From contig OZ037835.1 in the NCBI GenBank assembly GCA_964035575.1, positions 1,860,001 to 1,924,000 of the forward strand: a stretch of 64,000 bases of DNA. Reading direction: 5' to 3'. Origin of the DNA: Rhynchopus sp. YZ270_cl-10 (Eukaryota). The number at the start of each line of letters is the position of its first letter. Position 1 is the first letter of the stretch. Shown here in pieces: positions 22,601 to 43,485 of this stretch. The notes under the pieces are model-generated. The model worked only from the letters and a program-made list of their open reading frames with translations, ran no database searches and had not been told where the DNA came from. The translations under genes were made by a program, and so were the position numbers.

Positions 22601-23780
22601 TCTTCACCGCACCGTTGCACCAGCGTCGCTTCTTCTTCCTTGCCTTGCCTCTGGGGATGTGCCTCCTCGCGATGTTCTTCACCATCCCTGCCCACTTGGC
22701 TGCTGCGGTGCTGATCGAGCCCCACTTCATTGCGTCTGGCGAACTGCGCTCCATCTCCTTGGTGAAGCCTGCCCAGTTCGCCTTCTTCCAGTTCCACAGC
22801 TCTTTTTTGAGTTTCACCTCAGGATGTGTTGGAGGTGTTTGGGCGTTCGCTTGCACTTCAAACTCTATCGGCAGGTGGTCGGAGTTGAGCGTTTCCCGTG
22901 TTTGCCAATTGGGGTCGGCCCAGTCTCTGTCTGCGAAGACCACATCTGGTGACGTTTTGGTACCGCGCTGGATCCGCGTTGCTTCCTTCTTGTTCCAGCA
23001 TCGCATGTTGTTCCCCAACGCCCAGTCGTGTAGGTCAGTTCCCGTTTGGTTGGGAATTTTCGCCTGACTCCACGCCTGGTGATGTGCGTTGATGTCCCCT
23101 GCGATCACGCAGCCCTCTCCCGTTGGCAGATCCTGTGTTGCGAAGTCATCCTCTCTCTGGTCCCCCTTCTGTAGACCCACCCCGCTCGGCCGGTACACAT
23201 TCGTGAAGAGCACGCCCTCCACAATCACATCCAGCCTCTCTGTGGTCTCCCACGCTTCGAAGGGTTGTTCTGTCGCACGCAAGTTCTTCTTCACCAGTGT
23301 CGCAATCCCTCCCCCATGCGTCTCGCTGATGTCTTTTTTTCGAGCTACCGTTCGCACCCGCAGGAAAGTCCTGTACCCGTCAAAGTTCAGCTTGCCCGTT
23401 TGCGCCGCCATGAGTTCTTGGAGGTGTACTACATCGTACTTCTCCTTCTCCAGGACCTGCTTCAGCTCCCCTTTCTTCGGGCCCGTCAGCCCCCCCGCAT
23501 TCCAACTCATGCAGCGAAGGGTTCTTGGTTTTGGTCCTTGCTCTGGTTCTGGCTCTGGTCCTGGCTCAGGCTCGATGCCGTCCTCTAGCAGTTGGTTGCT
23601 CTTGATGGTGGAGGAGGTCTTGTCGAGTGTGGGGTCTGTGTTCGGTCGACCTGAGTGGTGTTGATGAGTCATCCTTGGGTGTGCGTGGGTCTTCCACTTG
23701 TACGGAAGCAAAAAAGGCAGTAGCAGCAGCAGCACACTATCCAGCATTAACCACACCAACAGCAACACCAGACACAACAG
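19686..23780 (-). CDS. Element A ORF2: APE endonuclease - reverse transcriptase - RNase H - C-terminal Cys/His knuckle (start undefined; in frame with ORF1)
   Basis: APE: SWNAGG, LQE, AGDINAHH, SDHLPI. RT: KSPGADG, YRPIALTS, QTGFR, LDLDKAYD, GVPQGTVLSP, FADD, YLGV. RNase H: YTDGS, AELVAI, TDSQSAL, PSHVGVSGNEEAD. Knuckle: CNNC...H...C. Confidence 0.95.
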   Translation of the reverse strand: MLCLVLLLVWLMLDSVLLLLLPFLLPYKWKTHAHPRMTHQHHSGRPNTDPTLDKTSSTIKSNQLLEDGIEPEPGPEPEPEQGPKPRTLRCMSWNAGGLTGPKKGELKQVLEKEKYDVVHLQELMAAQTGKLNFDGYRTFLRVRTVARKKDISETHGGGIATLVKKNLRATEQPFEAWETTERLDVIVEGVLFTNVYRPSGVGLQKGDQREDDFATQDLPTGEGCVIAGDINAHHQAWSQAKIPNQTGTDLHDWALGNNMRCWNKKEATRIQRGTKTSPDVVFADRDWADPNWQTRETLNSDHLPIEFEVQANAQTPPTHPEVKLKKELWNWKKANWAGFTKEMERSSPDAMKWGSISTAAAKWAGMVKNIARRHIPRGKARKKKRRWCNGAVKKAQKQRDRELRRQQKEETLTVADGDALTELRRQTANAIRKAKREVWEDKCTKAVATSGAFRLLRELDGRADKAQSYPIKVKKEGQQEKQQLSTNKEKADALGEHYCSVSDGTGLPDAEQQTTAGSQGAEAPLTLEELDAALNVLEAGKSPGADGIHNEMLMHLGPAAKKGLLHVMNLSWKQGQLPKEWKKAILFPIHKQGKPEEDLESYRPIALTSTVSKVMEHVLANRLLQLMEDPNEATQNLHPKQTGFRRFRSAVDNLAYITQLAKDSAAKKEVPIILTLDLDKAYDKVKRGKILERLHQHQVPERYIRWLTDYLKHRTARTTVEGTRSEEYVMREGVPQGTVLSPLLFNLVMTEVAEILEGTTAHFCIFADDLAIMCTERTLEEATAAIQKVLTLLEEHLPKLGFTISRRKTFVMPVTEKGDRADIRKAKCEVKYADGAVVNRAQTVRYLGVELDDALTMQPQLAAVKTKFLKKLSLIQLMAGRDWGCDAHMLRQVYMTYVLPTITYALAVWGPALNEAGLETLEVLHRRGARVITGCNYYTKAEDLLWEAHLRKIREHVEFDAAALYERARRQLETPAECAMHSSDTKLTWLRSAKDTVEQTKMYRHDQPAMSQTHYPVAPWRWKEVLPKVDIRPYVAGFKKGTQTDAEARSLTEQTTAELPPADLHVYTDGSVEGGRGHGGAGIVVYPGDSDKEIATANVGAGRMSISYTAELVAIREALPMVEELHRTDHKHNTVVILTDSQSALRALETGPVKATGLLCDVWSALHRATTKVRVIMQYIPSHVGVSGNEEADHEAKLGTATYQAERASQKGRLQEEPLTLLACKAAIRAVCSSYTPQPASELYSTITADTPKGVSRPKLSTPELTRRGAVQMRLLRTERHPALFDYMGSNDVARCNNCTAKSKATLKHMFKVCSATKALRTDLLPNKSLKFLLLEQPQLCLKYISAAKLTEASLPELVRSNTY

Positions 23781-25871
23781 TCAGTACCGCATGCTGCGGC
23801 GCTTCTCTTTCTCTTTCCTTGGCGAGGGGGAGGGCGTCGTCGCTAAGATCCGTCGTGTGTTCTTGGGGGTGGCACGGTCACGTTCGTCCCGCTCCGCTCT
23901 CTTCCCCCTGTTCAGCTGCTTGGGTGGCGTCAAGCCCATGCGGAGGCGGCGTTCTTCTGCGTGGAGGACGTCCCTCGCACGTTTCAGCTGGCGTTCCTCC
24001 TCCTGGCGCACCAGTGCTGCCGCTGTCGCGAGATCCATCTCCTCCTCTCGCTCTGTTTCCCGCTTTTTTTTTAAAAAAGCCTCGTAAGAGGCTTCGGCCT
24101 CTTGCAGCACTGCCTCCGTCGCCAGCCGTTTCGCTTCTGCTGAGGCGAATGCGTTCCTCCTCTTCTCCTCGGCCAACTCCTCCTGGCGTGTCTTCTTCAG
24201 GATTTCGTTATACTCCTGCCACTGTGCTTCTTCGCGTGCCTTCGCTTCTGCCCTCTCCGCCTCTGCAGTGTCGAATTCACGGCGGCGGTCCGTCTCTTCC
24301 TGCCGCCTCTGTGCCTGCAGCCGTTCTTCTGCTTCTTCTCTCTGTTCGCGTTGCTGTTGTTGTTGCCTCTGCTGTTGTTGCTGCCGCTGCTGCTGTTGCT
24401 GCCGCTGCTGCTGTTGTTGCCGCTGCTGCTGTTGTTGCTGCTGTTGCTTCCGCTCCTGCGTTTGCGTGGGTTCCTTCTTCGCCTTCGTCTCCTTCTTCGG
24501 CGGTGCCGTCACCTTCACCTCCTCATCGATTTGCATCTCGCCTTCTCCTTCTTCTTCTTCTTCTTCTTCTTCCGGTTCGGTGCGTCGCTGTTGTAGCTTT
24601 AGGTCGCGCATCTCCGTCATCAGCTGGTCCAGCTGGCTCGCCATGCGTTGCAGCGTCTGCTGCATCTCGTCCTTCTCTGCCCGCAGTGCACCTTCTCTCT
24701 CCTTCGACTCCAGGAGTTCCCGACGCATCTTCTCCACCTCGGCGTCCTGTGCGGGGTAGGGCTTGGGCACGTAGTCCTGCTGTGCCGCCCTTCCTTCCTC
24801 TTTTCCTTTTCCTTTTTTATTTGCGGCGTCAAACAGCCACCCTTCTTTGGTACGGTCGTACCGACGGAAGGTCAGCACGTCCTCCCCCACCACTACCGGC
24901 TTCAGCGTCCCCGGCGGTGCGCCCCGGACGAGAAGCACCCTGTGCGTGCCGTGCTTGCCGGTCCTCACCAACTCCGGCTCCCACGCGTGCTGCTCGCTCA
25001 GGATTGCCCGCACTCCGTTCTTCGACAGCGAGAGAGGCAGCCCGTCCACCACCCACATCTCTGCCCAGAGGTTCGTCTTCCCCTGCTCGCCCAACACCTT
25101 GCTGGCCTGCTCCTGTGTGGTGCCTTCCGGAACCGCGACGCCGAGTCCGCCCCGCGACAGCAGCACCACTCGCCCGCTCAGCTCGGTGGCCTGGTTCCGC
25201 GCCGTCTCCAGGTTCACTGTGCTCGGTAGCGGCGTCACCCGGTCGCCACCCCGTCCCGACCCGTTGGTGAAGAACGGCCTGGCGAAGAAGCCGTCATCGC
25301 CGCTTCCTGCCAGCACGTCCTTCACCTGCGCGCCGTCTACTCCAATCTTAAAAGCCGCCGTCTTTGCGGCTGGCTTCCCCTTCTTCGCCTTCAGCTCCAC
25401 GGCGGTCTGCACCTCGCCTCCGTGTGCCTTCACCCATGCACATGCTGCGGCACGGGTCACGCTGTTGCGGCTTTCCACCACAACGTATTTGGTTTGGGGC
25501 AATGCCCCCTGGTGCTGCTTTGCACCCGCCGTCTTGTGCACCGCCTGTACGGTGCTGACTGAGCACAGGAACCGGCGCTCCGTCCTCATCTCCTCCCCCC
25601 GCACCGTCACGAGGGAGATCAGTGGGGCCGCCAACCCCTGTGGTTTGTCGGCCGGGGCTACGAGTACCCCTGCCGTGTGCTGGTGCTGCGGCTTCTGCAG
25701 CGCTTCCTCCACTTCCTTACGGCTGCACCACAGGATGCCTCCGTTTTTCTTAAAATCAGCCAAGTTGGCTGCGAGTCGGCTGTCAGGAAAGTCCTCAGCC
25801 CGGGGTCTCCACATCGCCCCTGCCACCTCTTCGTCAGCCTTCTTCATCGTCTGCTGTCCAGAGGACCCCAT
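23781..25871 (-). CDS. Element A ORF1 (696 aa; globular N-half, coiled-coil/polyQ C-half)
   Basis: Long ORF directly upstream of ORF2 inside the TSD-bounded element; E/Q/R-rich C-terminal half. Confidence 0.85.
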   Translation of the reverse strand: MGSSGQQTMKKADEEVAGAMWRPRAEDFPDSRLAANLADFKKNGGILWCSRKEVEEALQKPQHQHTAGVLVAPADKPQGLAAPLISLVTVRGEEMRTERRFLCSVSTVQAVHKTAGAKQHQGALPQTKYVVVESRNSVTRAAACAWVKAHGGEVQTAVELKAKKGKPAAKTAAFKIGVDGAQVKDVLAGSGDDGFFARPFFTNGSGRGGDRVTPLPSTVNLETARNQATELSGRVVLLSRGGLGVAVPEGTTQEQASKVLGEQGKTNLWAEMWVVDGLPLSLSKNGVRAILSEQHAWEPELVRTGKHGTHRVLLVRGAPPGTLKPVVVGEDVLTFRRYDRTKEGWLFDAANKKGKGKEEGRAAQQDYVPKPYPAQDAEVEKMRRELLESKEREGALRAEKDEMQQTLQRMASQLDQLMTEMRDLKLQQRRTEPEEEEEEEEGEGEMQIDEEVKVTAPPKKETKAKKEPTQTQERKQQQQQQQQRQQQQQRQQQQQRQQQQQRQQQQQREQREEAEERLQAQRRQEETDRRREFDTAEAERAEAKAREEAQWQEYNEILKKTRQEELAEEKRRNAFASAEAKRLATEAVLQEAEASYEAFLKKKRETEREEEMDLATAAALVRQEEERQLKRARDVLHAEERRLRMGLTPPKQLNRGKRAERDERDRATPKNTRRILATTPSPSPRKEKEKRRSMRY

Positions 25872-26714
25872 CGTGGAGGGGGGTGGCTTTTTTGGGGGGA
25901 GGGGGGGAGCAGTTGGGATGTGCTCAGGGTTAATTCTTGATTCACTGTGTCCTCCTTATTCGTGGAATCGGATGTAAATAACAAAGTGTTTTTATGTGGG
26001 TGGTGTCAATCATGACGTCAATTCGCGTACACAAAAGTGTGCAGTGGCCAGAAGACAAGCTTGAATATATTATTTTCATCATGTTCTTAGGTGGCGGCTC
26101 TCCGATTCAGGCACCCCTACCGTAATAGGCACACCTTCACCGTGCCCGTCCCCAGGCCAAAGCCGAACGGGGTCCGCCATAGGGTCTTGAGAGCGCCGAC
26201 TTTGGGTACGTTAATCCCTTACCATACCTACTCATCGACGGAGCTGTGCGTTATGGGTAAGGAGTGCTCTTAGAGCCCACCTCGGGGTCGCTCATGTATC
26301 CCCCCCAAAGGTATTGTCCCACGGGCGGTCGCAGGGCTCTAGTTCATCCCCCCATACGTCCCCGGCACAAGGCCTTCGCGCGGTCAAAGGAATCCCATCA
26401 TACCCCCCCTACCTACTAGGAACATACCTCCACGACTGGATGCAGTTTTAGGTCATACCCAGGACCTGGGGGGGGTGTTTTTGTTTCATAAAAAGCTCCA
26501 ACAATTTTGTAGAATCTGCCAAAGGGAGTGGGGTTTCGTGTGTTTAGCATTTGAGTCGATGACAGACACCCCAGACTGTTTTTCCGCTTTCAGGTCGCAA
26601 CAGTGCAGGGAAGTGTCCCAAAACGATTTTCTGGGGGGTTTTGCGTGTAAATAGGGTCAGCACACTGGTGGGTCCGTGCTGTTTTTTCCACAGAACCGAC
26701 ATGTGGGACATGTC

Positions 26715-31958: not shown

Positions 31959-32866
31959 AGCAGCTCCGCTGTGACAGCTGCTTCACTCAGCTGCACAACT
32001 CACTGAGGTGTGCCTTCGAATATCGCCGCCCCTTTGGTCCCCATCTCGACGGCAGCGGCCTCACCCACGCATTCTCTTTCAGGATGCACGACAAAATAGA
32101 TTGACGATGCTTTTGCTGTGGGGTGGATGCGTACAACTAACAAACTCACCCCCTGTTTCGTTCCCCGTTTTCCTGTGTGGGTGAAGATAGCTATTGACAC
32201 CGTAGTACTTGCCGTTGTGAGAGGGGTGGGGTGGAGAGGTGGGGTGGGGGCAAAAGGCATGTTTTTGTTTCATAAAAAGCTCCAACAATTTTGTAGAATC
32301 TGCCAAAGGGAGTGGGGTTTCGTGTGTTTAGCATTTGAGTCGATGACAGACACCCCAGACTGTTTTCCCGCTTTCAGGTCACAAAAGTGCCGGGAGGTGC
32401 CCACAATAACCCCCAAGACGACTTTCTGCGGGTTTTTGCGGGTGAAAAGGTGCAGCACACAAGTGGTCCTGTGCTGTGTTTTTTCACAGAAACGAAATGT
32501 GTGGCGTGTCCACGCAACGACATGTTTTCCATCAAAAGGCCCCCCTACCTCCACCTGTTTTCATACCCCTATCACCCTTCCCCTCGTTGTTCACCCACCA
32601 CAGCTCCAACTCCCACAACCCCACCACACAACAGAGCAACACAAAAGGAAGACAAAATGGAAGTAGTTATCAAAGACTGTGCAGACAACTCGTATGCGAT
32701 CGAGGTGGGTGTGGATGACACAACGGAGACGATGCGGCAGAAGGTGGCGTCTGCAGTGGGGTTGGCTGAGGACAGCTTCCACATGGGCTTCGGAGGGAAG
32801 GAGGAAGGAGACGACATCACGCAGCTGAGTGCTGGAGACGCAATCATTCTGACGAAAGCTAAGAAG

Positions 32867-32950
32867 GAGGGTGAGAGACGACGCGCCTCCACGGGGTACC
32901 CTCGGGAGACGCCCCCCTCCTCTATGGGGGGAGGCGTCTGCTAAAGCGCG
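32867..32950 (+). ncRNA. Candidate HDV-like self-cleaving ribozyme at the 5' terminus of element B
   Basis: P1 GAGGGU(G)/(U)ACCCUC, P3 GCC/GGU, L3 UCCACGG, P1.1 GG, 14-position P4 (32907-32939, one mismatch), J4/2 GCUAA, short P2 CGC/GCG. Begins at the first base after the TSD. Confidence 0.6.
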
Positions 32951-32987
32951 GGGAAGAAGGACGGCGGCGGGGGGCAGCCTCGACGCG

Positions 32988-35900
32988 ATGTGCGGAGGGG
33001 CAGGTGGCCAAGGGGGGGAAAAGGGGGTGCTGCAGAAATACCTGAGGGGCTTCGACATGCGGGTAAAGGACGCAGGGGGGAACGGAGACTGCCAATTTAA
33101 GGCGGTCTCGATGGCTGTGCACGGAGACGCCACGGCGCACGGGGGGCTGAGGGAGATGGCGGTGGGGGTGTTGGAACGGGAAGCGGAGAATTGGGGTGAG
33201 CACGTTGACGGAGGACCGTCCGCCTACCGGAGGTACTGCTCGGCGATGGCGAAGCAGGGGTCCTGGGGGGACCACCTGACCCTGAAGGCGTTGGCGGAGG
33301 TGCTGATGCGGGAGGTGTATGCCTTCTCGGTGAAGGATGGGGAGGTGCGTGTGCTGAAGGTGCACCCGAAGGAGAAGGGCAGCGGTGCAGCGGTGACGGT
33401 GGCGTACGTGGACGCATGCCACTACCTGTGCGTCCTCCCCACGAGCACGGGGGAAGAAGCCGCCGAAGACCGGGCCCGCAAGGCGATGGTGGGGGGTGCG
33501 TTGGAGGTGACGGAGAAGCCGTACACCGTGCCGCAACCGCGAAACGATGCGAAGGCGGGGACGGAGGGGGGCTTCACCCAGGGGGGAGGGAAAAAGAAGA
33601 CGACGGCAGCGCTGACATTGCTGCAATCGGAGTGGGTGGGATCGACGCTTGTGCCGTGGGGGGAGGTGGTGGATAAGTCGGAGGGGGTCTGTCTTGTGCC
33701 GCAGGGTAGAGAGGTAGAGGCAGAGGGGAAGATCGCGCGCACGCCGGGCGTGACGTGGGTGGGTTTCGGGTCCTTCCCGAAGTCTGGTGGGGAGAAGATG
33801 CAGTGCCCCATGGGTAAGCAGGGGAATGGGGGGAAGGTGAACGGGGCGGCGAGCACGGCCGTGTACGTGGTGGGGAGGCTGAGGCCGGGGAGAGGAAACG
33901 GGGGGAAGAAGGCGTCGGCGGCCGTCCAACTGGTGACGGTGTTTGTGACGATGAGGCCGACAGCAGGACAAGCGCAGGACCTGGTGTCAGCGGGGAAGAA
34001 GATGCGTGCGGAGGTGGGGTGCAACCTCAACCGCCCACCATTGTGGCAGGAGGGTAAGCTGATCTCCTCGGTGGCCGACGTAAGGGAGGACGTAGCAGAG
34101 CGCTGCCTGAAGCAGAGTGGGAAGGGGGGTGTCTTCTTCCGGATGAGACGCGAGCAGTCGGAGCATCTGCCTGTCGTGTGGTTGGTGGACGGGGTGGGGC
34201 TAGAAGAGGCCCAGGGGCTGGCGACCCGGATGGGGGGATGGGGAGTGGCGGCGAGGTACGAGTCCCTGGGGATACGGGTGAAGAAGGAGGATCAGGAGCG
34301 TGCAAATGCGGCACTCATGCAGGAGGGAAAGGCGCCCGAAGGTCGATACGTGGTGTCCGGTTTCCCGTCGGGTACGTCCGGTGAAGCGGTGATGGAGTCG
34401 CTGGCAGGCGCAGGGTGGACGGTGACGCCGCTGCGGAGGCTGGAGGGATGGCGTTGGGTGGTGGGAGCGAAGCTGGATCCGCCGACGTGGGCCATGGACA
34501 TGGAGGGGAACGGGAAGGGGCTGCTGATCCGCAAGGATGGGCATAAGGAGGGCGGGGGTAGGGCAACGGCTCCGGGTCCGGGGGCGAAACAGAAGGCCAA
34601 GGTACATACCGCACATGCGTCTGGTCCGACATTTGGTGCCCGGACGGCGCCGGCGGCGACAGCGCAGCACAACCGTGGCACTGGGCCCGACTACGGTTGG
34701 GTGTCCTGGGCTGCGCACGCACGCCAAGCAGCAACAGCGCCAGCTGCAGCGAAGCCACCCACTACCACATCAAGGACACCTCCACCAACAACAACAACAA
34801 CAACGAAGCAACGGACGCCGAAGGGTCAACCCCCAATGACGTCGCCCGCCCCATCACCTGAGGACGCAGGCGAGAAGTGGGCGGAGTTGGAGCGCCGGAT
34901 GGAGGAGAGGTTGGACCGCCTGGTGGGCGAGCGCCTCCAGACCCTGCTGCAGGAGACGGTGGCGTCGCTGACGGCCCAGTTGCGGGAAGAACGGGTGGAG
35001 CAACGGAAGGAGCAGCAGGTGTGGATGGCGGCCATGCTGGAGCAAGTGGGCAAGCTCTGTTCCATGCCGAAGGAGGCCACGGCTGCTGCGAGAGAGGACG
35101 CCGCTGCTGCTGCTGCAGCCCTGAGGCAGGAGGAGGAGGAGGCGAAGGCCGCCGCCGCTGCAGCCCTGAGGCAGCGTGAGGAGGAGGCGAAGGCCGCTGC
35201 TGCTGCAGTCCTCAAGCAGCGTGAGGAGGAGGTGAAGGCCGCTGCTGCTGCAGCCCTGAGGCAGGAGGAGGAGGAGGCGAAGGCCGCCGCCGCTGCAGCC
35301 CTGAGGCAGCGTGAGGAGGAGGCGAAGGCCGCTGCTGCTGCAGTCCTCAAGCAGCGTGAGGAAGAGGTGAAGGCCGCCGCTGCTGCAGCCCTGAGGCAGC
35401 GTGAGGAGGAGGCGAAGGCCGCCGCTGCTGCAGCCCTCAAGCAGCGCGAGGAGGAGGTGAAGGCCGCTGCTGCTGCAGCCCTGAGGCAGCGTGAGGAGGA
35501 GGTGAAGGCCGCCGCTGCTGCAGTCCTCAAGCAGCGTGAGGAGGAGGTGAAGGCCGCTGCTGCTGCAGCCCTGAGGCAGGAGGAGGAGGTCGCCGCTGCC
35601 GCAGCCCTCAAGCAGCGCGAGGAGGAGGTGAAGGCCGCTGCTGCTGCAGCCCTGAGGCAGGAGGAGGAGGTCGCCGCTGCCGCAGCCCTCAAGCAGCGCG
35701 AGGAGGAGGTGAAGGCCGCTGCTGCTGCAGCCCTGAGGCAGCGTGAGGAGGAGGCGAAGGCCGCCGCTGCTGCAGCCCTCAAGCAGCGCGAGGAGGAGGT
35801 GAAGGCCGCTGCTGCTGCAGCCCTGAGGCAGCGTGAGGAGGAGGAGAAGGCCGCCGCTGCTGCAGTCCTCAAGCAGCGTGAGGAAGCCGACGCTGCTGCT

Positions 35901-36968
35901 GCAATCCTCTGGCAGCAGGAGGAGGAAGCCGCCGCCGCCGCTGCTGCAGTTGCTGCTGAGAACGCCAGGCAGCGCGAGGGGGAGGCTGCTGCTACTACGG
36001 CCCCGACTGTCGCAGTGCCCACTGCAGCGCCCACAACACCCGAGATGCAGATGGCGGATGAATTGTTGGACACACTCCCAGACGGGAATGCCGAGGACGT
36101 GATGTCACCGGAGCCCGCAACGATGGCAGGTAAGCGGATACGTGCGGGAAATGGGTCCAGTGAGGTTGAGGAGCTGAGCCCGCGCCGCAGGAGAAGGAGG
36201 GCTGACACCATCCGTGGAAAGCCGGGGGTAGTCGTAGAAGTCGCCGAAGCACGGAACCGGTCGCGGTCAGCACCGCCCAGGGACACATCGCCGACTGCGG
36301 ACGTTGCTGGCGCCGGTGATGTGGAGGTAGTGGTGGCGTCCCCGAAGAAGAAGAAGAAACGCAGGAACATTGTGGCCGCTGAGAAACGACGGGAGGCACT
36401 ACGGGCAGCACAGGAAGAAGCGGCGGCAAAGAAGGAGAGACGTGCTGCAGCAGTGCAGGCACAACGTGAGCAGGAGCAAGGGGAGAACGCCGGCGCAGGG
36501 ACCCCCGCACCCACGACACCAGACGCCGAGGCACGGATGGACGACGCCGACATGGCACTGCCGGTGCAGACATCGCCAGACTGTGCGGCTGTCGAGGAGG
36601 ACGCGGAGTCCTCGCCAGCTCCCAGAGTGCCGGTGGCGCCACCTGCCGTGACCCTGGCGGGCAAGCGGGAAGACCGCAGTGAGTCCGGTGAGACGGTGGC
36701 GCTGCTGAGTCCGCCGCGCAGGATGCGGACGGAAGTCCCCGCAAAAGAGCAGGCGGAGGGGAACGAGAAGAACGAGGAGTCGTACGGGAACGCAGTGCTG
36801 GAGGCTGGCGACTCCATGGAGTACTGCGAGGAGGGAGGCAACGGCGCAGCCATCCCGGTGACTGTCGTGAAGGTAGCGGGGGACGTCATCGAGATCGCGT
36901 TTCGTCCCGTCCAGGGACTAGACAACAGGTTGGTAGGCCGCAACACCCTGCGCGATGTGGGGCGGTGA
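32988..36968 (+). CDS. Element B ORF1 (1326 aa from first ATG): OTU-like cysteine protease, conserved core, 15-aa Ala/Glu repeats
   Basis: OTU motifs GNGDCQFKAVS, SWGDHLTLKALA and AYVDACHY. About 18 copies of LRQREEEAKAAAAAA. Confidence 0.85.
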   Translation: MCGGAGGQGGEKGVLQKYLRGFDMRVKDAGGNGDCQFKAVSMAVHGDATAHGGLREMAVGVLEREAENWGEHVDGGPSAYRRYCSAMAKQGSWGDHLTLKALAEVLMREVYAFSVKDGEVRVLKVHPKEKGSGAAVTVAYVDACHYLCVLPTSTGEEAAEDRARKAMVGGALEVTEKPYTVPQPRNDAKAGTEGGFTQGGGKKKTTAALTLLQSEWVGSTLVPWGEVVDKSEGVCLVPQGREVEAEGKIARTPGVTWVGFGSFPKSGGEKMQCPMGKQGNGGKVNGAASTAVYVVGRLRPGRGNGGKKASAAVQLVTVFVTMRPTAGQAQDLVSAGKKMRAEVGCNLNRPPLWQEGKLISSVADVREDVAERCLKQSGKGGVFFRMRREQSEHLPVVWLVDGVGLEEAQGLATRMGGWGVAARYESLGIRVKKEDQERANAALMQEGKAPEGRYVVSGFPSGTSGEAVMESLAGAGWTVTPLRRLEGWRWVVGAKLDPPTWAMDMEGNGKGLLIRKDGHKEGGGRATAPGPGAKQKAKVHTAHASGPTFGARTAPAATAQHNRGTGPDYGWVSWAAHARQAATAPAAAKPPTTTSRTPPPTTTTTTKQRTPKGQPPMTSPAPSPEDAGEKWAELERRMEERLDRLVGERLQTLLQETVASLTAQLREERVEQRKEQQVWMAAMLEQVGKLCSMPKEATAAAREDAAAAAAALRQEEEEAKAAAAAALRQREEEAKAAAAAVLKQREEEVKAAAAAALRQEEEEAKAAAAAALRQREEEAKAAAAAVLKQREEEVKAAAAAALRQREEEAKAAAAAALKQREEEVKAAAAAALRQREEEVKAAAAAVLKQREEEVKAAAAAALRQEEEVAAAAALKQREEEVKAAAAAALRQEEEVAAAAALKQREEEVKAAAAAALRQREEEAKAAAAAALKQREEEVKAAAAAALRQREEEEKAAAAAVLKQREEADAAAAILWQQEEEAAAAAAAVAAENARQREGEAAATTAPTVAVPTAAPTTPEMQMADELLDTLPDGNAEDVMSPEPATMAGKRIRAGNGSSEVEELSPRRRRRRADTIRGKPGVVVEVAEARNRSRSAPPRDTSPTADVAGAGDVEVVVASPKKKKKRRNIVAAEKRREALRAAQEEAAAKKERRAAAVQAQREQEQGENAGAGTPAPTTPDAEARMDDADMALPVQTSPDCAAVEEDAESSPAPRVPVAPPAVTLAGKREDRSESGETVALLSPPRRMRTEVPAKEQAEGNEKNEESYGNAVLEAGDSMEYCEEGGNGAAIPVTVVKVAGDVIEIAFRPVQGLDNRLVGRNTLRDVGR
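35100..35890 (+). repeat. 45-bp coding tandem repeat (about 18 units, some 39 bp)
   Basis: Variants of ctgaggcagcgtgaggaggaggcgaaggccgccgctgctgcagcc. Confidence 0.9.
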
Positions 36969-39900
36969 CGGTGTGGTGCGGTGGAAGGGTACGGCACAGG
37001 ATTGGCTTCTTCGTGCGTAGTTGGAGAACGAGACGTTTTTGTGAAAACTGTCTCCCCAACAAGGGGTCAGCATCGTTTGCGCTCTGCGGGCTGTATGCTG
37101 TCGGGGACAAGGGGTAAGGGTAGAACGCGAAGGGGGGTGGGGCGAGGGGTCGGACACAGGGTGCGTCGAGGGAGGCGACGAGGGGCGTTTTTGGGCAGGG
37201 GGTCACTGCTGACATGTGGAGACGTGGAGGAGCATCCGGGTCCGTCGACCATGTCGCTTGGCACGGCAAACGTGACGTCTCTGAGGGCACACCCTGCGGT
37301 GGGGGAGTGGGATGTGGACGTTTGTGCTCTGCAGGAGGTGCGCCTCACAGAAGAAGAGATGAAGGGGGCAGCAAACGACGTGAAGGGGTATGGTGCCAAG
37401 CAGCTTCTCTTTGGTGCCCCTTGCAGACGAAGCCAGGGATCAGACCCTCTGCGCACGCGCACGCAGAATGGTGGAGTTGCGATCATGACGTGCGCTGACA
37501 TACCGACCAGAGCAGTACCGCCACAATGTGCCCAACAAGCGTGGAACGAATGCCGCTTTACGCATGCGCAGGTGGCATATGGGAGCGGGGGACGTAACAT
37601 CTCTGTGTTCTCGTTTTATGGTGTGTGTGCTGACAGCGACCGCACGGAGCAACTCCTGACAGGCATCTTTGAAGAAGCAGCCAGCCTTGGGGACATACCG
37701 GTGTTCATTGCCGGAGACTTCAACGTAGAGGCTAACGAAAGTCTAGCCATTCGAGCGGCCATCTCCTCCGGCAAATGGGTTGATGCGGCAGATACCTACG
37801 CACAGCAGTTGGGTAAGGCAGCAGAGAACACATGCTATACCTCCACATCGTCTGGCAGACGTATCGACTTGGTGCTGGCGAACCACGTGGCTGCCCCTGC
37901 GATCTCCAAAGTGGTGGTCTGGAAAGAGAGCTGCCTCCCGGTACACAGACCGGTGGTGTTGACGTTAGACCTGACGCGATACGAGCAGAAGGCACCGCAG
38001 GCACGCCCTCCCCTTTCTTTGATCGGCGACGACTGGACGAAATGGCCGGCGAAGAAGGAGAAGGAGCTTGCAGCGAAGGTGATGCAGGAGAACGCTGCCC
38101 CTGAAGCCGACCTGACGAAGATGTCGGTTGAAGATCGCTGGGCACGCTTCTGCAAGATTGCGGAGGACTACCTGCTGAAGAGAGGTGCTGCAGACTCAGA
38201 CCCGAAGCAACAACGCCACAGGGGGAGAGGGGAGGTGCAACCCGACGTTCTCCGACATCGGACGGCCCGCATGGACTGCGACACGCCGGATGCTGTGAAC
38301 CTGGAGACGGCTCAACTGCAGAAGACATGTCGTCAGATGGAGCAGCTCATTGGTGATCGGAGGAAGCGCTTCGGTCAGCCATCTGCAGAATCGTTGAACG
38401 AACGGCAGCTGTGGGCGAAAATCCGCAAGAAGAAGCATCTACTGAAGAGTGACACCTGGGACCTCGACCTTCCTGGGATAGAGGCGTTGTGTGGGCTCCT
38501 TGGCTGCTTGAAGAAGAGGGGTTTTGTCCTGCTGGAGCAACGGCGTCGGGCCCGCATCAAGGAATGGCGCCGCACAATGAAGGAACACATGAAGGTGAAC
38601 CCAGCGAAGGTGTTCTCGTTCCTGCGGAAGGCTACGTCGTCACACACCACGTTCCTGAAACGGGAGGACGGCACGGTTACAGCTAACCTCCAGGAGATGG
38701 ATGAACTGCTCATGGATGACCGTGCTTGGGGTGGGGTGTTCCGGATGTACGACGATTCCGAAGAACCTGCGTGGACGACGTTCTTTGATAGGTTCAAGGA
38801 ACACATTCCTGAAGGGACCCCTTGTGTATGCGAACCCCTGACCGCCGACGACCTCCGTACGACCATCGGCAAGATGAAGCGGAAAAAGGCGGCAGGCCTC
38901 GATGGGTGGAGGGTGGAGGAGCTGAAGGAACTGCCTTTGACACTGCTGGAGGAACTCGCGCGCTGCCTGAACCTGATCGAGGATACTGGGAACTGGCCCA
39001 GGGTGATTGCGAGGGCGTTGGTGGTGCTCATCCCCAAAGGAGAAGGCGAGGAGCCCCTGAAGCAGCGACCCATTACCATCACCAGTGTGATGTACAGGTT
39101 ATGGGCGGCGACTCGACTCCGCAAAGTGGCGACGTGGCAGGAATCCTGGATTCACGAGCGGCAACACGGCTTCCGGAACAAACACGGAACCGAAGACCTG
39201 CTGTGGTTTCTCTGTGCGAAGATGGAGGAGGCTCTGATAGACGACACACCTATCTATCTAGCCTCCTTCGACTATCAGAAGTGCTTTGACCGTGTTCCCC
39301 AAGAGATCATGTTCCAGCTCGTCGAACGGTTGGGTCTTCCCGACAACATGATGCGCCCCATCCGGGGTATATACAAGAAGCTGGGGAGGCGTTTCAAACT
39401 TCCGGCAGGTCTTGGCAAAGAATGGTTTGCGACGAATGGTATCCTCCAAGGATGCCCACTGAGCGTAATCTTCCTGAATGCGCTGGTGGCGGTGTGGATG
39501 AACGGGGTGGAGAAGGAAACGGGCACGCAGGGGCTGGCGTATGCTGACGACACCAACCTCCTGACGAAGACCCTCGACCAGCTGCGAGCGGGTGTCGCCT
39601 TCACCGGACACTTTGCAGACTTGACGGGACAACGCGTCCACGCGGGGAAGAGCACGTGGCAGAGCAACCGTCCTGATGAAGAGGAAACTGTGCAGATGAA
39701 CGGCGCGGATCTTACTCGCGTCGAGAAGTCGGAGTGCCTGGGGGCGACGGTGCAGGCCCGACAGGCTGGGACGCCCACGCTCCCGACGAAGCTGGAAGAC
39801 ACCATCGACGCATGCGGACCGCTAGCAGGTAAGGTGGGATGCCTCCCGCTGACTCAAGGTGAGAAAGCAGGCATCATGCAGGCTGCAGTGATGTCGAAAT

Positions 39901-41975
39901 CTGTGTACGGTATCACGGTGCAGGACCCACCTGGGAAATACGTGAACAGTCTTGCAACTGCAGTGGAGAAAGGGGTCCACGGCGTGAACAAGATGAACCG
40001 AAGAAGCGTACCGGTCATGCTGAATGTCTTCGAGAAAGGCCATCTGCTCGACCCCTCGGTGGCATTCGACTACAGAAGGATCATGACGTGGGCGGCGATG
40101 ATACGCAAATCGGATGAGATCTGTTTGCTGGTCGAAAAGTGCAGGTCACGTGCGAAAGCGAAGCAGGCGAAGACTGGAGGACCCATCGGGTTGATTGCGC
40201 GAGCCCTCAGCCGCCTTGCGTGGTCATGGATAGACACGACAAAAGTGAAAACGCACGATGGGAGCATCGTTGATGTGAAGACGGTAAGCTTGGGTAGACT
40301 GGGCCACGTTGTGCGAGAACGGATGTTCTTCATTCGACTCTCCCGTACGAAGACGACTGCGAAGGCCAATGGCAAAGGCAGAGCTAACCTGAAGGGTATT
40401 GAAGCGGGGGTGGATAAGGAGAAAACCCTTGCTCTCACCCGAAGCAAAACTTTGACGGATTACGAGGCGGGGACGCTGCGACACATTGTAGCTGACGGTG
40501 CGATAACGGGGGTGCGACTTGCGAGAGCGCGCATACGGGACTCGGCCATCTGCGTGCACTGCGAAGCGGGGGTGGACGAAAATCACAAACACTTGTGGTG
40601 GGAATGTGAAGCATGGAGTAGCATTCGTGCGGAGTACCCCTTGCTGTTGGACATTGACAGAACGACCTGGCCAAACTGTCTCGCTATCTGCGGCATGTGC
40701 ACACCGGACACACCTTTGGAATGCGCCCGTGTTGCAGACCTGCAGAAGATGATGGTGCGCATCCTCATCGCACGCTCCAAGTGGAGCAGACCGGAAGCGG
40801 CGAACCCGCGACTGCAAGAAGACCGATACCCGTGGACGTGGGCGCCGGAGTTGGACACGACGACGCAACACGCGAACAGTTTGGTGGACTACACCCCCCT
40901 GAAAAGGAGGTGGCCGTATGGACGTGCGCTGCTGCTGGCGTTTGCCTCCTGGCTGGGTGGTTTACAATGGAGCGACGAAGCTGGACGTGAAGTCTCCCAC
41001 ATGGAGCTGCTCATCGACTTCGAGGTTGCCACAGGGATGGACATCCGACCTGGGGACAAGACCGGCAGAATAGCGCCGAAGCTGAAGCAGCCGAGGGATG
41101 GGACTGGGGAAGAAGACAACAATGGGGAGGAAGACGACGGGAGTGGGGAAGACGACAATGATGACGACGTGGTGCCAGTAGCGCTGGCCCACAGAGAAAT
41201 GGCGAAGACGACCACCTTTGGGCATATGTTGGCTTCACTCAGAACCTTTTCGGAGAGCTCTCTCCATCCGGGGAAGGTGAAGATAACGCATGTTCTCGCT
41301 TCGTTTGGGGCGAACGCCATCACAGGCATCGACCGCCGTCCTATCTTTGCCGGCGGAGAAGAAACGTTGAAGGCATTGCGTGCGCTATACGATGCTGGTG
41401 TGGCGTACCGGCTGCAACGCAGCTCCGAAGGCATGTCTGAGGTGGAGCTCCGTGGTGGCGATAGAGCGAGAGGTACATGGATGGGGGAGTATTCTGCTGA
41501 GACGGCGTACCCCTCCACAGAAGTTAGGGGCAGGAGGGCACTACCATTCATCCAGCGGGCTGAACAGGAGACATCTGCGCATGCTCGCTACCGGCACCAT
41601 GAGCACGTGCGTCCAGGGGACGCACCCGTGAAGGCACCTGAAGGAGCGGTTCCGATCTTCCAGTTTGCGATATGTGTGCTGCACCGGAAGACGAAGTGTG
41701 ATGCCTGCTCGAAGAACGCCCAGGCAGACCTGATGCATTGCTGCTTTGCGCACCACTCCAACGACGACGGGTTACCGATCCGACACGAAGCGTGCACTAA
41801 GCATAGACTCTCGAGGTGCGGGAACTGTGTGCAAGAGAAGAGTACGCTGGATCACTGCTGCCGCCGCCACCACGACACCTCGAAGGGGCGACAGACGACG
41901 CTGGGAGGCTTCTTCAGGAAGAAGCAGACGAAGCAGAAGGATGGGCACAGCAGGGGCGGTGATGGACTTATGTAA
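36969..41975 (+). CDS. Element B ORF2: 2A-like peptide - APE - RT - Cys/His knuckle - C-terminal tandem Cys/His motif (start undefined; in frame with ORF1)
   Basis: 2A-like: LLTCGDVEEHPGP. APE: TANVTS, ALQE, AGDFN, RIDLVL, HRPV. RT: KAAGLDGW, RPITI, QHGFR, FDYQKCFD, GILQGCPLS, YADD. Knuckle: CVHC...HLWWEC. No RNase H motifs seen. Confidence 0.95.
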   Translation, partial: RCGAVEGYGTGLASSCVVGERDVFVKTVSPTRGQHRLRSAGCMLSGTRGKGRTRRGVGRGVGHRVRRGRRRGAFLGRGSLLTCGDVEEHPGPSTMSLGTANVTSLRAHPAVGEWDVDVCALQEVRLTEEEMKGAANDVKGYGAKQLLFGAPCRRSQGSDPLRTRTQNGGVAIMTCADIPTRAVPPQCAQQAWNECRFTHAQVAYGSGGRNISVFSFYGVCADSDRTEQLLTGIFEEAASLGDIPVFIAGDFNVEANESLAIRAAISSGKWVDAADTYAQQLGKAAENTCYTSTSSGRRIDLVLANHVAAPAISKVVVWKESCLPVHRPVVLTLDLTRYEQKAPQARPPLSLIGDDWTKWPAKKEKELAAKVMQENAAPEADLTKMSVEDRWARFCKIAEDYLLKRGAADSDPKQQRHRGRGEVQPDVLRHRTARMDCDTPDAVNLETAQLQKTCRQMEQLIGDRRKRFGQPSAESLNERQLWAKIRKKKHLLKSDTWDLDLPGIEALCGLLGCLKKRGFVLLEQRRRARIKEWRRTMKEHMKVNPAKVFSFLRKATSSHTTFLKREDGTVTANLQEMDELLMDDRAWGGVFRMYDDSEEPAWTTFFDRFKEHIPEGTPCVCEPLTADDLRTTIGKMKRKKAAGLDGWRVEELKELPLTLLEELARCLNLIEDTGNWPRVIARALVVLIPKGEGEEPLKQRPITITSVMYRLWAATRLRKVATWQESWIHERQHGFRNKHGTEDLLWFLCAKMEEALIDDTPIYLASFDYQKCFDRVPQEIMFQLVERLGLPDNMMRPIRGIYKKLGRRFKLPAGLGKEWFATNGILQGCPLSVIFLNALVAVWMNGVEKETGTQGLAYADDTNLLTKTLDQLRAGVAFTGHFADLTGQRVHAGKSTWQSNRPDEEETVQMNGADLTRVEKSECLGATVQARQAGTPTLPTKLEDTIDACGPLAGKVGCLPLTQGEKAGIMQAAVMSKSVYGITVQDPPGKYVNSLATAVEKGVHGVNKMNRRSVPVMLNVFEKGHLLDPSVAFDYRRIMTWAAMIRKSDEICLLVEKCRSRAKAKQAKTGGPIGLIARALSRLAWSWIDTTKVKTHDGSIVDVKTVSLGRLGHVVRERMFFIRLSRTKTTAKANGKGRANLKGIEAGVDKEKTLALTRSKTLTDYEAGTLRHIVADGAITGVRLARARIRDSAICVHCEAGVDENHKHLWWECEAWSSIRAEYPLLLDIDRTTWPNCLAICGMCTPDTPLECARVADLQKMMVRILIARSKWSRPEAANPRLQEDRYPWTWAPELDTTTQHANSLVDYTPLKRRWPYGRALLLAFASWLGGLQWSDEAGREVSHMELLIDFEVATGMDIRPGDKTGRIAPKLKQPRDGTGEEDNNGEEDDGSGEDDNDDDVVPVALAHREMAKTTTFGHMLASLRTFSESSLHPGKVKITHVLASFGANAITGIDRRPIFAGGEETLKALRALYDAGVAYRLQRSSEGMSEVELRGGDRARGTWMGEYSAETAYPSTEVRGRRALPFIQRAEQETSAHARYRHHEHVRPGDAPVKAPEGAVPIFQFAICVLHRKTKCDACSKNAQADLMHCCFAHHSNDDGLPIRHEACTKHRLSRCGNCVQEKSTLDHCCRRHHDTSKGRQTTLGGFFRKKQTKQKDGHSRGGDGLM

Positions 41976-43485
41976 CATCATCTCCACGATGTATTGTATC
42001 ACCTATCTCGGATAGGGGTGCATGCATCGAAAACGGGCCCCCACCTCTGACGAAAGCTAAGAAGTTCGAGGCCAGAGCAGCACTTCATGCGTTGGGTGAG
42101 GACATCACTGCAGAGAGGCTAAAGACTGTGAGGGATGCTGAGGTTGCGTGTTTGCTTCTGCAGGCGGAGGTTGCGACTGTCATTCCGAATCAGTTCTTGG
42201 CACAGACATCGTTAACAGCACTTGATCTGAGTGCTGTGTCCTGTGTGACGGAAATTGGTGATAAGTTTCTTCACCAGTGCACATCGTTGACGAGCATCGA
42301 CCTGTCTGGGTTGACACGTCTCACGCGGATTGGTACCCAGTTTCTTTCCGGCTGCAAGAGCCTCACAGCAGTAGGCTTATCATCATTTCGCAATGTTACA
42401 CACATTGCCGGATGCTTTCTTGCCCACTGCTGCAGCCTCACAGCAGTGGACTTATCACCACTCAGCAATGTTACACAAATTGATGGCTACTTTCTTGACT
42501 ACTGCAGGAGCCTCAAAGCAGCGGACTTATCGCCACTTCGCAATGTTGCATACATTGGTCGCTTCTTTCTTTACAACTGCAACAGCCTCACAGCAGTGGA
42601 CTTGTCAGCGCTCAGCAATGTTACACACATTGATGGCAACTTTCTTGCCTGCTGCAGCAGGCTCACAGAACTAGACCTGTCGCCACTCAGCAGAGTTGCG
42701 CACTTTGGTAAGGACCCTGCTTACGGCTGCACTTCATTGAGGAGCATCCACCTTGGCGGCTGCAGCAGTGCTGTGTCCAGTCGAGTATGTGTAGGCAATC
42801 TGAAGAAGTATGTGGTTGACACACTTACACCTCCACCTCCACCTCCGACACGTGGCAGAGACAAGACGAAAGCAGCCGTTCCTTGCTGTAGTGTTTCGTA
42901 AAGAGCGACAGGAGAAGCTGGGCAAGGAACGTAGAGCAGCTCCGCTGTGACGGCTGTACCCTCATCAAAAGTTCTAAACAAAGTGTGACATGGAGGGGGA
43001 AGCGTTCAACATATCAATCTCAACCACCATTCCGATTCTCGCGATTGTTGCCCTTTTTTCTGAATCTACAACACACACAGCGCATGCACGTTCAGATTAG
43101 TTCATAAGGGTTTGGAATACAATGACGCCGCACTCCTAGGTTTCCTTCTTATGTTTATGATTACATGCAATGCTAAAAGGAAATAGAACACCGTACCCCT
43201 ACTCCCATCCTTCTTCCATATTTTTTAATCCGGGGCGGGTTGGAGTAGAGCCACATTTCACCGGCAGGTAGAGGTGTGTGCGTTTCACCACCCGCAACTT
43301 TGCTTTGTCTAAAAGCTTTCACTGCTCTCCTTCCAAGCTTGCTCTGATACAACTTCAAAGTGTACGGCTACCTACAAAGGAAGCGGCTTTGGTGAGGTGT
43401 TGTTTTCCTTTCACCATGTTCACCCACCACAGCCCCAACTCCCACAACCCCACCACACAACAGAGCAACACAAAAGGAAGACAAA

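What the first reader, a model, noticed from the sequence alone, without database searches (positions are those of the whole stretch)
36966..37244. Element B junction: UGA-CGG in frame, a downstream stem-loop, then 2A-like GDVEEHPGP
Seen: ORF1 TGA is followed by CGG TGT GGT GCG GTG..., open to 41975. There is a hairpin at ~37018-37060 (gttgg..gagac.gtttt/aaaac.gtctc..ccaac) and LLTCGDVEEHPGP just before APE. Established: UGA-CGG plus 3' structure is a viral readthrough signal, and D(V/I)ExNPGP causes StopGo and occurs at the N-terminus of L1Tc-like ORFs. Inference: readthrough sets the ORF1:ORF2 ratio and StopGo releases free APE-RT. Finding the same layout in element A argues against a chance nonsense mutation. 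A host ankyrin copy uses TGA where its paralogue has TAA, so this is not codon reassignment.
Basis: partly seen in the sequence, partly recalled or inferred. Interest (0 to 1): 0.85.

Follow-up and report, generated by a model that had tools for sequence, protein, structure and literature searches.

The report
LINE with stacked readthrough and 2A
A jumping gene (LINE retrotransposon), likely from a marine diplonemid protist, keeps its two genes in one reading frame across a single leaky-type stop codon (UGA-CGG) followed by a virus-like 2A peptide, so its copying enzyme is likely made when ribosomes occasionally read through the stop and may then be released as a separate protein.

Summary
Element B is an intact, multi-copy APE-RT non-LTR element with a 19-bp target-site duplication; its nearest named relatives are in Diplonema papillatum.

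ORF1 ends at TGA-CGG (36966-71). The same frame stays open through a 92-codon linker, a peptide matching T2A at 16 of 17 residues (N to H), APE and RT.

The stop is not a chance mutation. Contigs from 4 of 4 runs show no change there. A second subfamily, whose ORF1 is only 50% identical, keeps TGA-CGG in frame across indels of 6 and 39 nt. Its hairpin changes fall in unpaired positions (6/9 unpaired vs 1/38 paired). Three of five informative distant relatives also have one in-frame TGA before a 2A-like motif.

Readthrough is the best reading (about 0.6). Reinitiation at a GUG/AUG five codons after the stop is a real rival (about 0.27). HPGP skipping is uncertain (about 0.5).

Readthrough alone was already predicted for Paramecium LINEs and noted by this scan on other DNA; 2A before APE is published. 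I did not find the stacked pair in print. Nothing is tested experimentally.

The parts
32848..32866 (+). Left copy of the 19-bp target-site duplication, inside a host ubiquitin-like + BspA-LRR gene
   Evidence: Identical to 42046-42064; host halves align to paralogues up to 32866 and from about 42046
32867..32948 (+). Predicted HDV-like self-cleaving ribozyme at the exact 5' end of element B
   Evidence: Hand-assigned helices P1 6/6, P2 3/3, P3 3/3, P1.1 2/2, P4 7/7 pair; HDV topology recalled; no Rfam hit
32988..36968 (+). ORF1 (1326 aa): OTU protease domain (about 33078-33422), conserved middle domain, Ala/Glu repeat tract
   Evidence: Pfam OTU E=7.6e-10; copies P0021-P0032
36966..36971 (+). 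ORF1 stop in type II readthrough context, UGA-CGG
   Evidence: Sequence; no change in the contigs covering it in 4 of 4 runs; also present in subfamily B2; motif class from PMC3159437
36976..36997 (+). Proximal hairpin starting 8 nt after the stop; contains the GUG at 36981 (candidate reinitiation codon)
   Evidence: Pair probabilities about 0.95; z -2.95 on a window chosen after seeing it; base 4 bp can also form in B2, judged by eye
37003..37069 (+).
   Evidence: Folding; B2 changes at 6 of 9 unpaired vs 1 of 38 paired positions in 37023-37069, p=5e-5
36969..37244 (+). 92-codon open linker, in-frame AUG at 37095
   Evidence: B2 differs by in-frame indels of 6 and 39 nt
37194..37244 (+). T2A-like peptide GRGSLLTCGDVEEHPGP (16 of 17 residues as in T2A; H for N)
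   Evidence: T2A sequence as printed in 10.1101/2021.03.10.434623; B2's listed changes here (37220, 37226) are synonymous
37245..41975 (+). ORF2 body: AUG 37251, APE endonuclease (about 37296-37922), reverse transcriptase (about 39030-39680), C-terminal Cys/His motifs
   Evidence: Pfam PF03372 E=6.3e-10 and PF00078 E=2.4e-19
42046..42064 (+). Right copy of the target-site duplication
23781..23783 (-). Element A (unrelated APE-RT-RNase H family): in-frame UGA-CUG between its ORF1 and ORF2
   Evidence: conservation not shown
23556..23591 (-). Element A degenerate 2A-like motif LLEDGIEPEPGP before its APE
   Evidence: lacks the D and the N of the canonical core

Best explanation
Element B is an intact LINE whose ORF1 and APE-RT gene sit in one frame across a conserved UGA-CGG; ORF2 is likely made when a minority of ribosomes read through that stop, helped by predicted 3' stem-loops, and the T2A-like peptide then likely releases at least part of the APE-RT as a free protein starting at Pro. 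Shown: frame, stop, context, conservation. Inferred: (1) one RNA, probably freed from the host co-transcript by the 5' HDV-like ribozyme; (2) most ribosomes stop at UGA and give OTU-ORF1p in excess; (3) a few percent insert an amino acid and translate the linker (probability about 0.6); (4) StopGo at G|P separates ORF1-linker from APE-RT, or drops further ribosomes (about 0.5, given step 3). Both steps together: about 0.3-0.35.
For: The stop is invariant in the contigs covering it in 4 of 4 runs. 10 of 12 ORF1 proteins of the family end exactly at the junction; the other 2 end early in unrelated residues. Subfamily B2 has an ORF1 50% identical over 706 aa that ends RTK at its own TGA-CGG, in frame with the shared ORF2. 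Its indels are 6 and 39 nt, and the block right after the stop (36993-37106) is 87% conserved while the ORF1 end does not align at 80%. B2 changes avoid paired positions (p=5e-5); 0 of 10 paired third codon positions change vs 4 of 5 unpaired. 6 of 10 listed B2 changes are synonymous (expected about 27%, p=0.03). Distant relatives (RT 45-50% identical, on separate branches): L002 TGA-TGC, L006 TGA-CTG and L007 TGA-CAA are in frame, 3 of 5 informative loci; L002 and L007 have no Met between stop and 2A. 8 of 11 family members have no Met between the 2A-like motif and the first APE motif, so the family must translate through the 2A. UGA-CGG/CUA with a stem 7-9 nt downstream is the published type II signal. 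Closely similar peptides were classed active in HEK293T: KDVGRGSLLTCGDVEENPGP skipping; the exact D. papillatum P0001 20-mer fall-off with reduced protein.
Against: No RNA, ribosome or protein data. B2 has an in-frame AUG, and the window a GUG with G at -3 and +4, at the same fifth codon after the stop, which fits reinitiation. Only the 6-nt indel lies upstream of AUG 37095 (1 in 3 by chance). The 8 changes upstream of that AUG are not significantly synonymous (4 of 8, p=0.13). Two of five distant relatives (L001, L008) end ORF1 with TAG and carry ORF2 in another frame. The chance of 3 of 5 is 0.014-0.2, depending on the null. The upstream ORFs in L002, L006 and L007 are taken as ORF1 from position and composition only; no sequence match to the window's ORF1 was found, and L002 has a frameshift elsewhere. 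No two-sided compensatory pair was seen, and one pair is broken in B2. Post-stop regions of the relatives and of element A are not unusually stable (z -0.3 to +1.2). N16 substitutions abolished high activity in P2A/F2A.
Confidence: 0.6

Rival explanations
1. Termination-reinitiation: ribosomes stop at UGA and restart in frame close by (GUG 36981, which is AUG in B2, or AUG 37095), helped by the downstream structure as in SART1. The 2A then trims the leader off APE-RT.
For: B2 has AUG and the window has GUG in strong context at the fifth codon after the stop. SART1 needs a structure downstream of its stop-start site, and LINE-1 ORF2 is thought to use unconventional reinitiation (passages). L008 has TAG followed by an AUG in another frame about 10 codons later.
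Against: It does not explain why CGG is kept while the flanking codons diverge in B2, or why the in-frame stops are all UGA (C at +4 in B, A, L006, L007). L002 and L007 have no in-frame AUG between stop and 2A.
Confidence: 0.27
2. ORF2 has its own mRNA or start: a spliced leader is trans-spliced into the linker, or translation starts at AUG 37251, and the 2A-like motif is a relic.
For: Essentially all D. papillatum mRNAs are SL trans-spliced (passage). AUG 37251 sits just before APE and is shared by B2.
Against: The best AG in the linker has 0.57 pyrimidines upstream vs 0.63-0.83 for 9 of 9 host LRR genes; the linker is 39% pyrimidine. 8 of 11 relatives lack a Met between 2A and APE. The listed B2 changes in the 2A are synonymous.
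Confidence: 0.07
3. The TGA is a chance nonsense mutation in a single-ORF element (dead copy), or UGA is reassigned in this host.
For: Many 2A-bearing non-LTR elements have a single ORF. A Symbiodinium ORF2p with an N-terminal OTU domain is reported.
Against: The stop is in all contigs laid across it and in B2, and 10 of 12 ORF1 proteins end there. Host genes use TGA, TAA and TAG as stops, with paralogues interchanging TGA and TAA.
Confidence: 0.03

Closest known systems
Paramecium tetraurelia non-LTR retrotransposons, Group 3 (Guerin et al. 2017, PMC5405496; passages read)
   Same: [quoted passage not shown]
   Different: Ciliate clade. The passages seen give no stop context, RNA structure or 2A. 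Here there is UGA-CGG, a conserved stem-loop, a T2A-like peptide and an OTU domain in ORF1.
2A-like sequences of APE-type non-LTR elements: L1Tc, Ingi, CR1, L2, Crack, Rex1 (Odon et al. 2013, PMC3708506; passages; PMC13405545 section 14)
   Same: 2A-like peptide immediately upstream of APE
   Different: Most of those elements lack an ORF1, and 2A was proposed to replace the two-ORF layout. Here a full ORF1 and an in-frame stop are kept upstream of the 2A, and the core is HPGP.
Type II viral readthrough: alphavirus, tobravirus, pecluvirus, furovirus replicases (Firth et al. 2011, PMC3159437; passages)
   Same: UGA-CGG followed by a stem starting about 8 nt downstream and 100-140 nt of conserved sequence, upstream of the polymerase
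   Different: A retrotransposon, not a virus. The proximal stem is short (4+3 bp) and the larger stem starts 35 nt downstream. No compensatory pairs are shown, and the virus tobravirus-type motif's A before the stop is absent.
SART1 / LINE-1 termination-reinitiation (review PMC5972666, passages)
   Same: Two-ORF LINE; downstream RNA structure near the ORF1 stop
   Different: No overlapping UAAUG. A single stop in a leaky context, and a 92-codon open, conserved linker with 2A.
Diplonema papillatum elements annotated as R2-like Pol polyprotein (P0001 cluster, KAJ9444445.1)
   Same: Sister group in the RT tree (99/99, 53% identity); GRGSLLTCGDVHENPGP before APE
   Different: NPGP core and a 330-aa repetitive leader. 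Their DNA and ORF1 junction could not be fetched.

Membership tests
APE-type non-LTR retrotransposon | APE endonuclease followed by non-LTR reverse transcriptase in one ORF | tested here: met
   Pfam PF03372 and PF00078
APE-type non-LTR retrotransposon | Target-site duplication, multiple copies, 5'-truncated copies | tested here: met
   19-bp TSD; 12 ORF1 proteins; joint 32839-37754 consistent with a 5'-truncated copy
Ingi/L1Tc clade | RNase H domain after RT, no ORF1 | tested here: not met
   Element B has no RNase H hit and has a 1326-aa ORF1. Element A has RNase H but also an ORF1. Clade features and recall.
Type II (UGA-CGG/CUA) programmed readthrough | UGA followed by CGG or CUA, in frame with a downstream ORF | tested here: met
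Type II (UGA-CGG/CUA) programmed readthrough | Conserved 3' RNA structure starting about 8 nt after the stop | tested here: inconclusive
   Hairpin at +8 and extended stem at +35; B2 changes avoid pairs, but only two variants were compared and no two-sided compensation was seen
Type II (UGA-CGG/CUA) programmed readthrough | Measured readthrough product | not testable with these tools
   Needs a reporter, ribosome profiling or proteomics
Class A 2A/StopGo peptide | Core D(V/I)ExNPG|P | tested here: not met
   Window reads DVEEHPGP, H in place of N; N16 intolerant in P2A/F2A
Class A 2A/StopGo peptide | Upstream context with leucines and G-D of an active 2A | tested here: met
   GRGSLLTCGD identical to T2A
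Class A 2A/StopGo peptide | Measured skipping | not testable with these tools
   The exact peptide is not among the 38 HPGP rows read; 5 of 10 GD[V/I]xxHPGP analogues were classed skipping
Class B 2A peptide | WxxxL/VxxEG(I/V)Ex(N/H)PGP with invariant Trp | tested here: not met
   No Trp and no EG; motif
HDV-like ribozyme at a retrotransposon 5' end | Nested double pseudoknot P1-P4 with catalytic C, starting at the first nucleotide | tested here: inconclusive
   All five hand-assigned helices pair; P1 6 bp, P2 3 bp; no Rfam hit; cleavage not testable

The most novel reading that the evidence does not exclude
A widespread lineage of protist LINEs expresses its polymerase through two stacked recoding events: UGA readthrough sets the ORF1:ORF2 ratio, and an HPGP-type 2A releases free APE-RT. 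The stop-hairpin-2A cassette is kept when ORF1 is exchanged, and an unrelated RNase H-type LINE in the same genome converged on the same layout.
Probability: 0.3. Interest if true: 0.82.

Novelty: new variant of a known kind. Interest (0 to 1): 0.62.

Why it matters
How LINE ORF2 proteins are translated is a long-standing open question; the worked-out cases use termination-reinitiation. Readthrough has been predicted for one ciliate group and, in the papers my searches reached, not tested. This element offers a compact 280-nt testable cassette and a natural control: two 50%-identical ORF1s feeding the same ORF2 through the same UGA-CGG. A relative occurs in the genome-sequenced model species D. 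papillatum. If both steps hold, a cellular transposon combines two virus-style recoding signals in series to obtain a low dose of a free enzyme. It would also show that a T2A backbone tolerates H at the 'invariant' N in its native host.

Tried and rejected
No whole genome is held for this window. The sequencing-run search listed no RNA holder, which is no evidence either way. Two scans of viral contigs found no relative of B or A; a third query had no conserved stretch to search with. Rfam found nothing meaningful in 18000-43000. The impression by eye that the A and B ORF1s are homologous was not supported by BLASTP (best E=2.6). The protein search for element A ORF1 found no copy or relative. 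The ORF2 search returned no same-genome ORF2 proteins, so the B2 linker could not be read as protein. Loci dropped before the 3-of-5 count: of 18 loci, 11 do not reach upstream of APE or are not informative relatives, L013 starts inside the linker, and L014 is rearranged (two 2A-like motifs in different frames). My first hand-set ribozyme coordinates were misregistered and were corrected. The representative-protein search and the ESM Atlas did not answer, so the ORF1 fold and the family-wide N/H frequency remain open. The LINE-1 paper PMC1356112 is not held. Supplements of PMC5405496 and of bioRxiv 2026.09.24.754024 were not seen; they may give the Paramecium stop contexts and the N16H scores. 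Stop-codon reassignment and a chance nonsense mutation were rejected.
Full report
WHAT IS THERE. The window is a eukaryotic gene array (ankyrin and ubiquitin-like + BspA-LRR paralogues) with two unrelated non-LTR retrotransposons. Element B spans 32867-42045, flanked by a 19-bp target-site duplication inside an LRR gene. ORF1 (ATG 32988, 1326 aa) has an OTU domain. ORF2 (36969-41975, same frame) has APE and RT. The closest named proteins are Diplonema papillatum elements (45% over the N-terminal 420 aa; sister group in an RT tree at 99/99), so the host is likely a diplonemid (inference). No genome is held.

OBSERVATION. TGA 36966-68, CGG, an open 92-codon linker, the hairpin 37020-37060, GDVEEHPGP ending at 37244 and AUGs at 37095 and 37251 are all present. 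The other two linker frames are closed. The peptide GRGSLLTCGDVEEHPGP matches T2A at 16 of 17 positions (T2A as printed in 10.1101/2021.03.10.434623, passages). It is natural, since D. papillatum elements carry GRGSLLTCGDVHENPGP at the same place. UGA is a real stop in the host: the 15 host ORFs checked end in TAA (9), TGA (5) or TAG (1), and ankyrin paralogues interchange TGA and TAA.

IS THE STOP CONSERVED? In Logan contigs of four runs (three studies, run type not on record; one may be the window's source) the contigs covering the stop had no other letter, at depths 4, 792, 919 and 1914. Contigs drop rare variants, and depth is not copy number. Of 12 ORF1 proteins retrieved, 7 end at the window's junction and 3 at the equivalent junction of a second subfamily; 2 end early in unrelated residues. 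That search could not show proteins over 2000 aa.

A NATURAL CONTROL, SUBFAMILY B2. Three of the four runs hold a second form that aligns only at 36993-37106 (15 differences) and from 37176 onward. Its ORF1 (P0025, P0031, P0032) is 50% identical over 706 aa and ends RTK. The loose end shows these codons followed by TGA-CGG, 18 nt before 36993 versus 24 nt in the window. A 69-nt part is replaced by 108 nt. Both differences are multiples of three. Downstream of 37227 the summed depths suggest the two forms share ORF2, i.e. an ORF1 exchange (inference). Of the 15 differences, 8 are listed, those at least 30 nt from the piece ends. Seven fall in 37023-37069: 6 of 9 unpaired vs 1 of 38 paired positions (p=5e-5; p=0.001 under a cruder hand partition). 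Paired third codon positions changed 0 of 10 times, unpaired ones 4 of 5. The structure was derived from the window sequence, one pair is broken, and no two-sided compensation is seen. Six of the 10 listed changes are synonymous (p=0.03), but only 4 of 8 upstream of AUG 37095 (p=0.13). A small hairpin starts 8 nt after the stop, the spacing reported for type II readthrough stems (PMC3159437, passages); its base can also form in B2 (by eye). Against readthrough: the fifth codon after the stop is GUG in the window and AUG in B2, both with G at -3 and +4.

DISTANT RELATIVES. Scans of metagenome and genome contigs gave 18 loci. Seven reach upstream of APE and five show an ORF end and a 2A-like motif in usable form. 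L002 (TGA-TGC, canonical GDVEQNPGP 40 codons on, no Met until inside APE), L006 (TGA-CTG, 333 codons, first Met at 51) and L007 (TGA-CAA, 76 codons, no Met before the 2A) are in frame. L001 and L008 end with TAG and have ORF2 in another frame. The in-frame cases lie on separate branches at 45-50% RT identity to B. Chance for 3 of 5 is 0.014-0.2 by null, and the loci are not phylogenetically independent. Their upstream ORFs are assumed to be ORF1 (no match to the window's ORF1), and their post-stop RNA is not unusually stable. In 8 of 11 family members no Met lies between the 2A-like motif and the first APE motif, so AUG 37251 is not the family's start. Element A (APE-RT-RNase H, about 27% RT identity) also has UGA-CUG in frame, but it is one copy with a degenerate motif and no relatives were found.

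TRANS-SPLICING RIVAL. Essentially all D. papillatum mRNAs carry a spliced leader (PMC10161547, passages). Nine host LRR genes have an AG preceded by 0.63-0.83 pyrimidines; the best linker AG has 0.57. The element's first 82 nt can pair as an HDV-like ribozyme (topology recalled; Rfam negative; precedent in L1Tc/ingi, PMC4035085, abstract). This fits a single full-length RNA.

IS THE 2A ACTIVE? Evidence is split. In saturation mutagenesis no substitution at N16 of P2A or F2A reached 0.6 (bioRxiv 2026.09.24.754024, sections 24 and 28 read; supplements closed). In PMC13405545 supplement file 3 (rows found by search), 38 peptides contain HPGP. Of the 10 with GD[V/I]xxHPGP, 5 were classed skipping, 1 fall-off and 4 non-skipping; only 2 of the other 28 were classed skipping (my count). 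Three peptides of the D. papillatum type were classed skipping, skipping with reduced protein, and fall-off with reduced protein. The classifier is noisy: a one-residue T2A variant was classed non-skipping. All tests were in human cells. HPGP recurs in relatives (P0002, P0003, L008) and is unchanged in B2. I put activity at about 0.5.

MECHANISM. Most likely a single RNA gives ORF1p in excess, a few percent of ribosomes read through UGA-CGG, and the 2A-like peptide releases part of the APE-RT or further lowers it. Readthrough about 0.6, reinitiation near the stop about 0.27, separate mRNA or AUG 37251 about 0.07, dead copy or recoded genome about 0.03.

COMPARISON AND NOVELTY. [quoted passage not shown] 2A before APE is established, mostly in elements without ORF1 (PMC3708506, passages); a 2A between fused ORF1 and ORF2 and an OTU-bearing ORF2p are reported (PMC13405545 section 14). 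Paper searches for the combination (listings, plus passages of PMC5972666 and PMC5009743) and two look-ups in earlier findings showed no LINE with both signals in series; the library lacks most subscription journals. Verdict: a real, conserved feature and a new variant of known recoding in LINEs, untested; interest 0.62.

Noticed in passing
window 32848-32867; proteins P0022-P0024, P0027, P0030; joint 32839-37754: Element B appears target-specific for the host ubiquitin-like + LRR gene family. Five other ORF1 proteins are called with a paralogous host N-terminus fused in frame at the same site (within about 1 nt of the window's insertion), and a 5'-truncated copy joins a paralogue at about the same place.
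   Followed up: partly
window 32867-32948: Predicted HDV-like ribozyme at the first nucleotide of element B. The translated 5' end of B2 (P0025) resembles the same stretch, suggesting the core is conserved.
   Followed up: partly
window 33078-33422: OTU deubiquitinase-like domain at the N-terminus of ORF1, in an element that inserts into genes starting with a ubiquitin-like domain.
   Followed up: partly
window 37227 onward vs upstream: Subfamilies B1 and B2 seem to share ORF2 but have 50%-identical ORF1s: a recent ORF1 exchange with the crossover near the 2A.
   Followed up: partly
window 23780-23700 (minus); P0003; L008:2413-2500; L001:470-640: Strongly hydrophobic, signal-peptide-like stretches directly after the ORF1 stop or at the start of the linker in element A and several relatives.
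   Followed up: no
window 19686-25955 (minus): Element A has RNase H like Ingi/L1Tc yet carries a 724-codon upstream ORF, whereas Ingi-clade elements are described as lacking ORF1.
   Followed up: no
P0005; L014:480-850: Two 2A-like motifs in tandem upstream of APE.
   Followed up: no
L013, L014, L015-L018: Relatives of this LINE family sit on short contigs in bacterial and archaeal MAGs, most likely eukaryotic contamination of those bins.
   Followed up: no
window 35100-35950: Ala/Glu-rich tandem repeat in ORF1 varies in length between copies (P0022-P0030); two proteins end early in or just before it.
   Followed up: no
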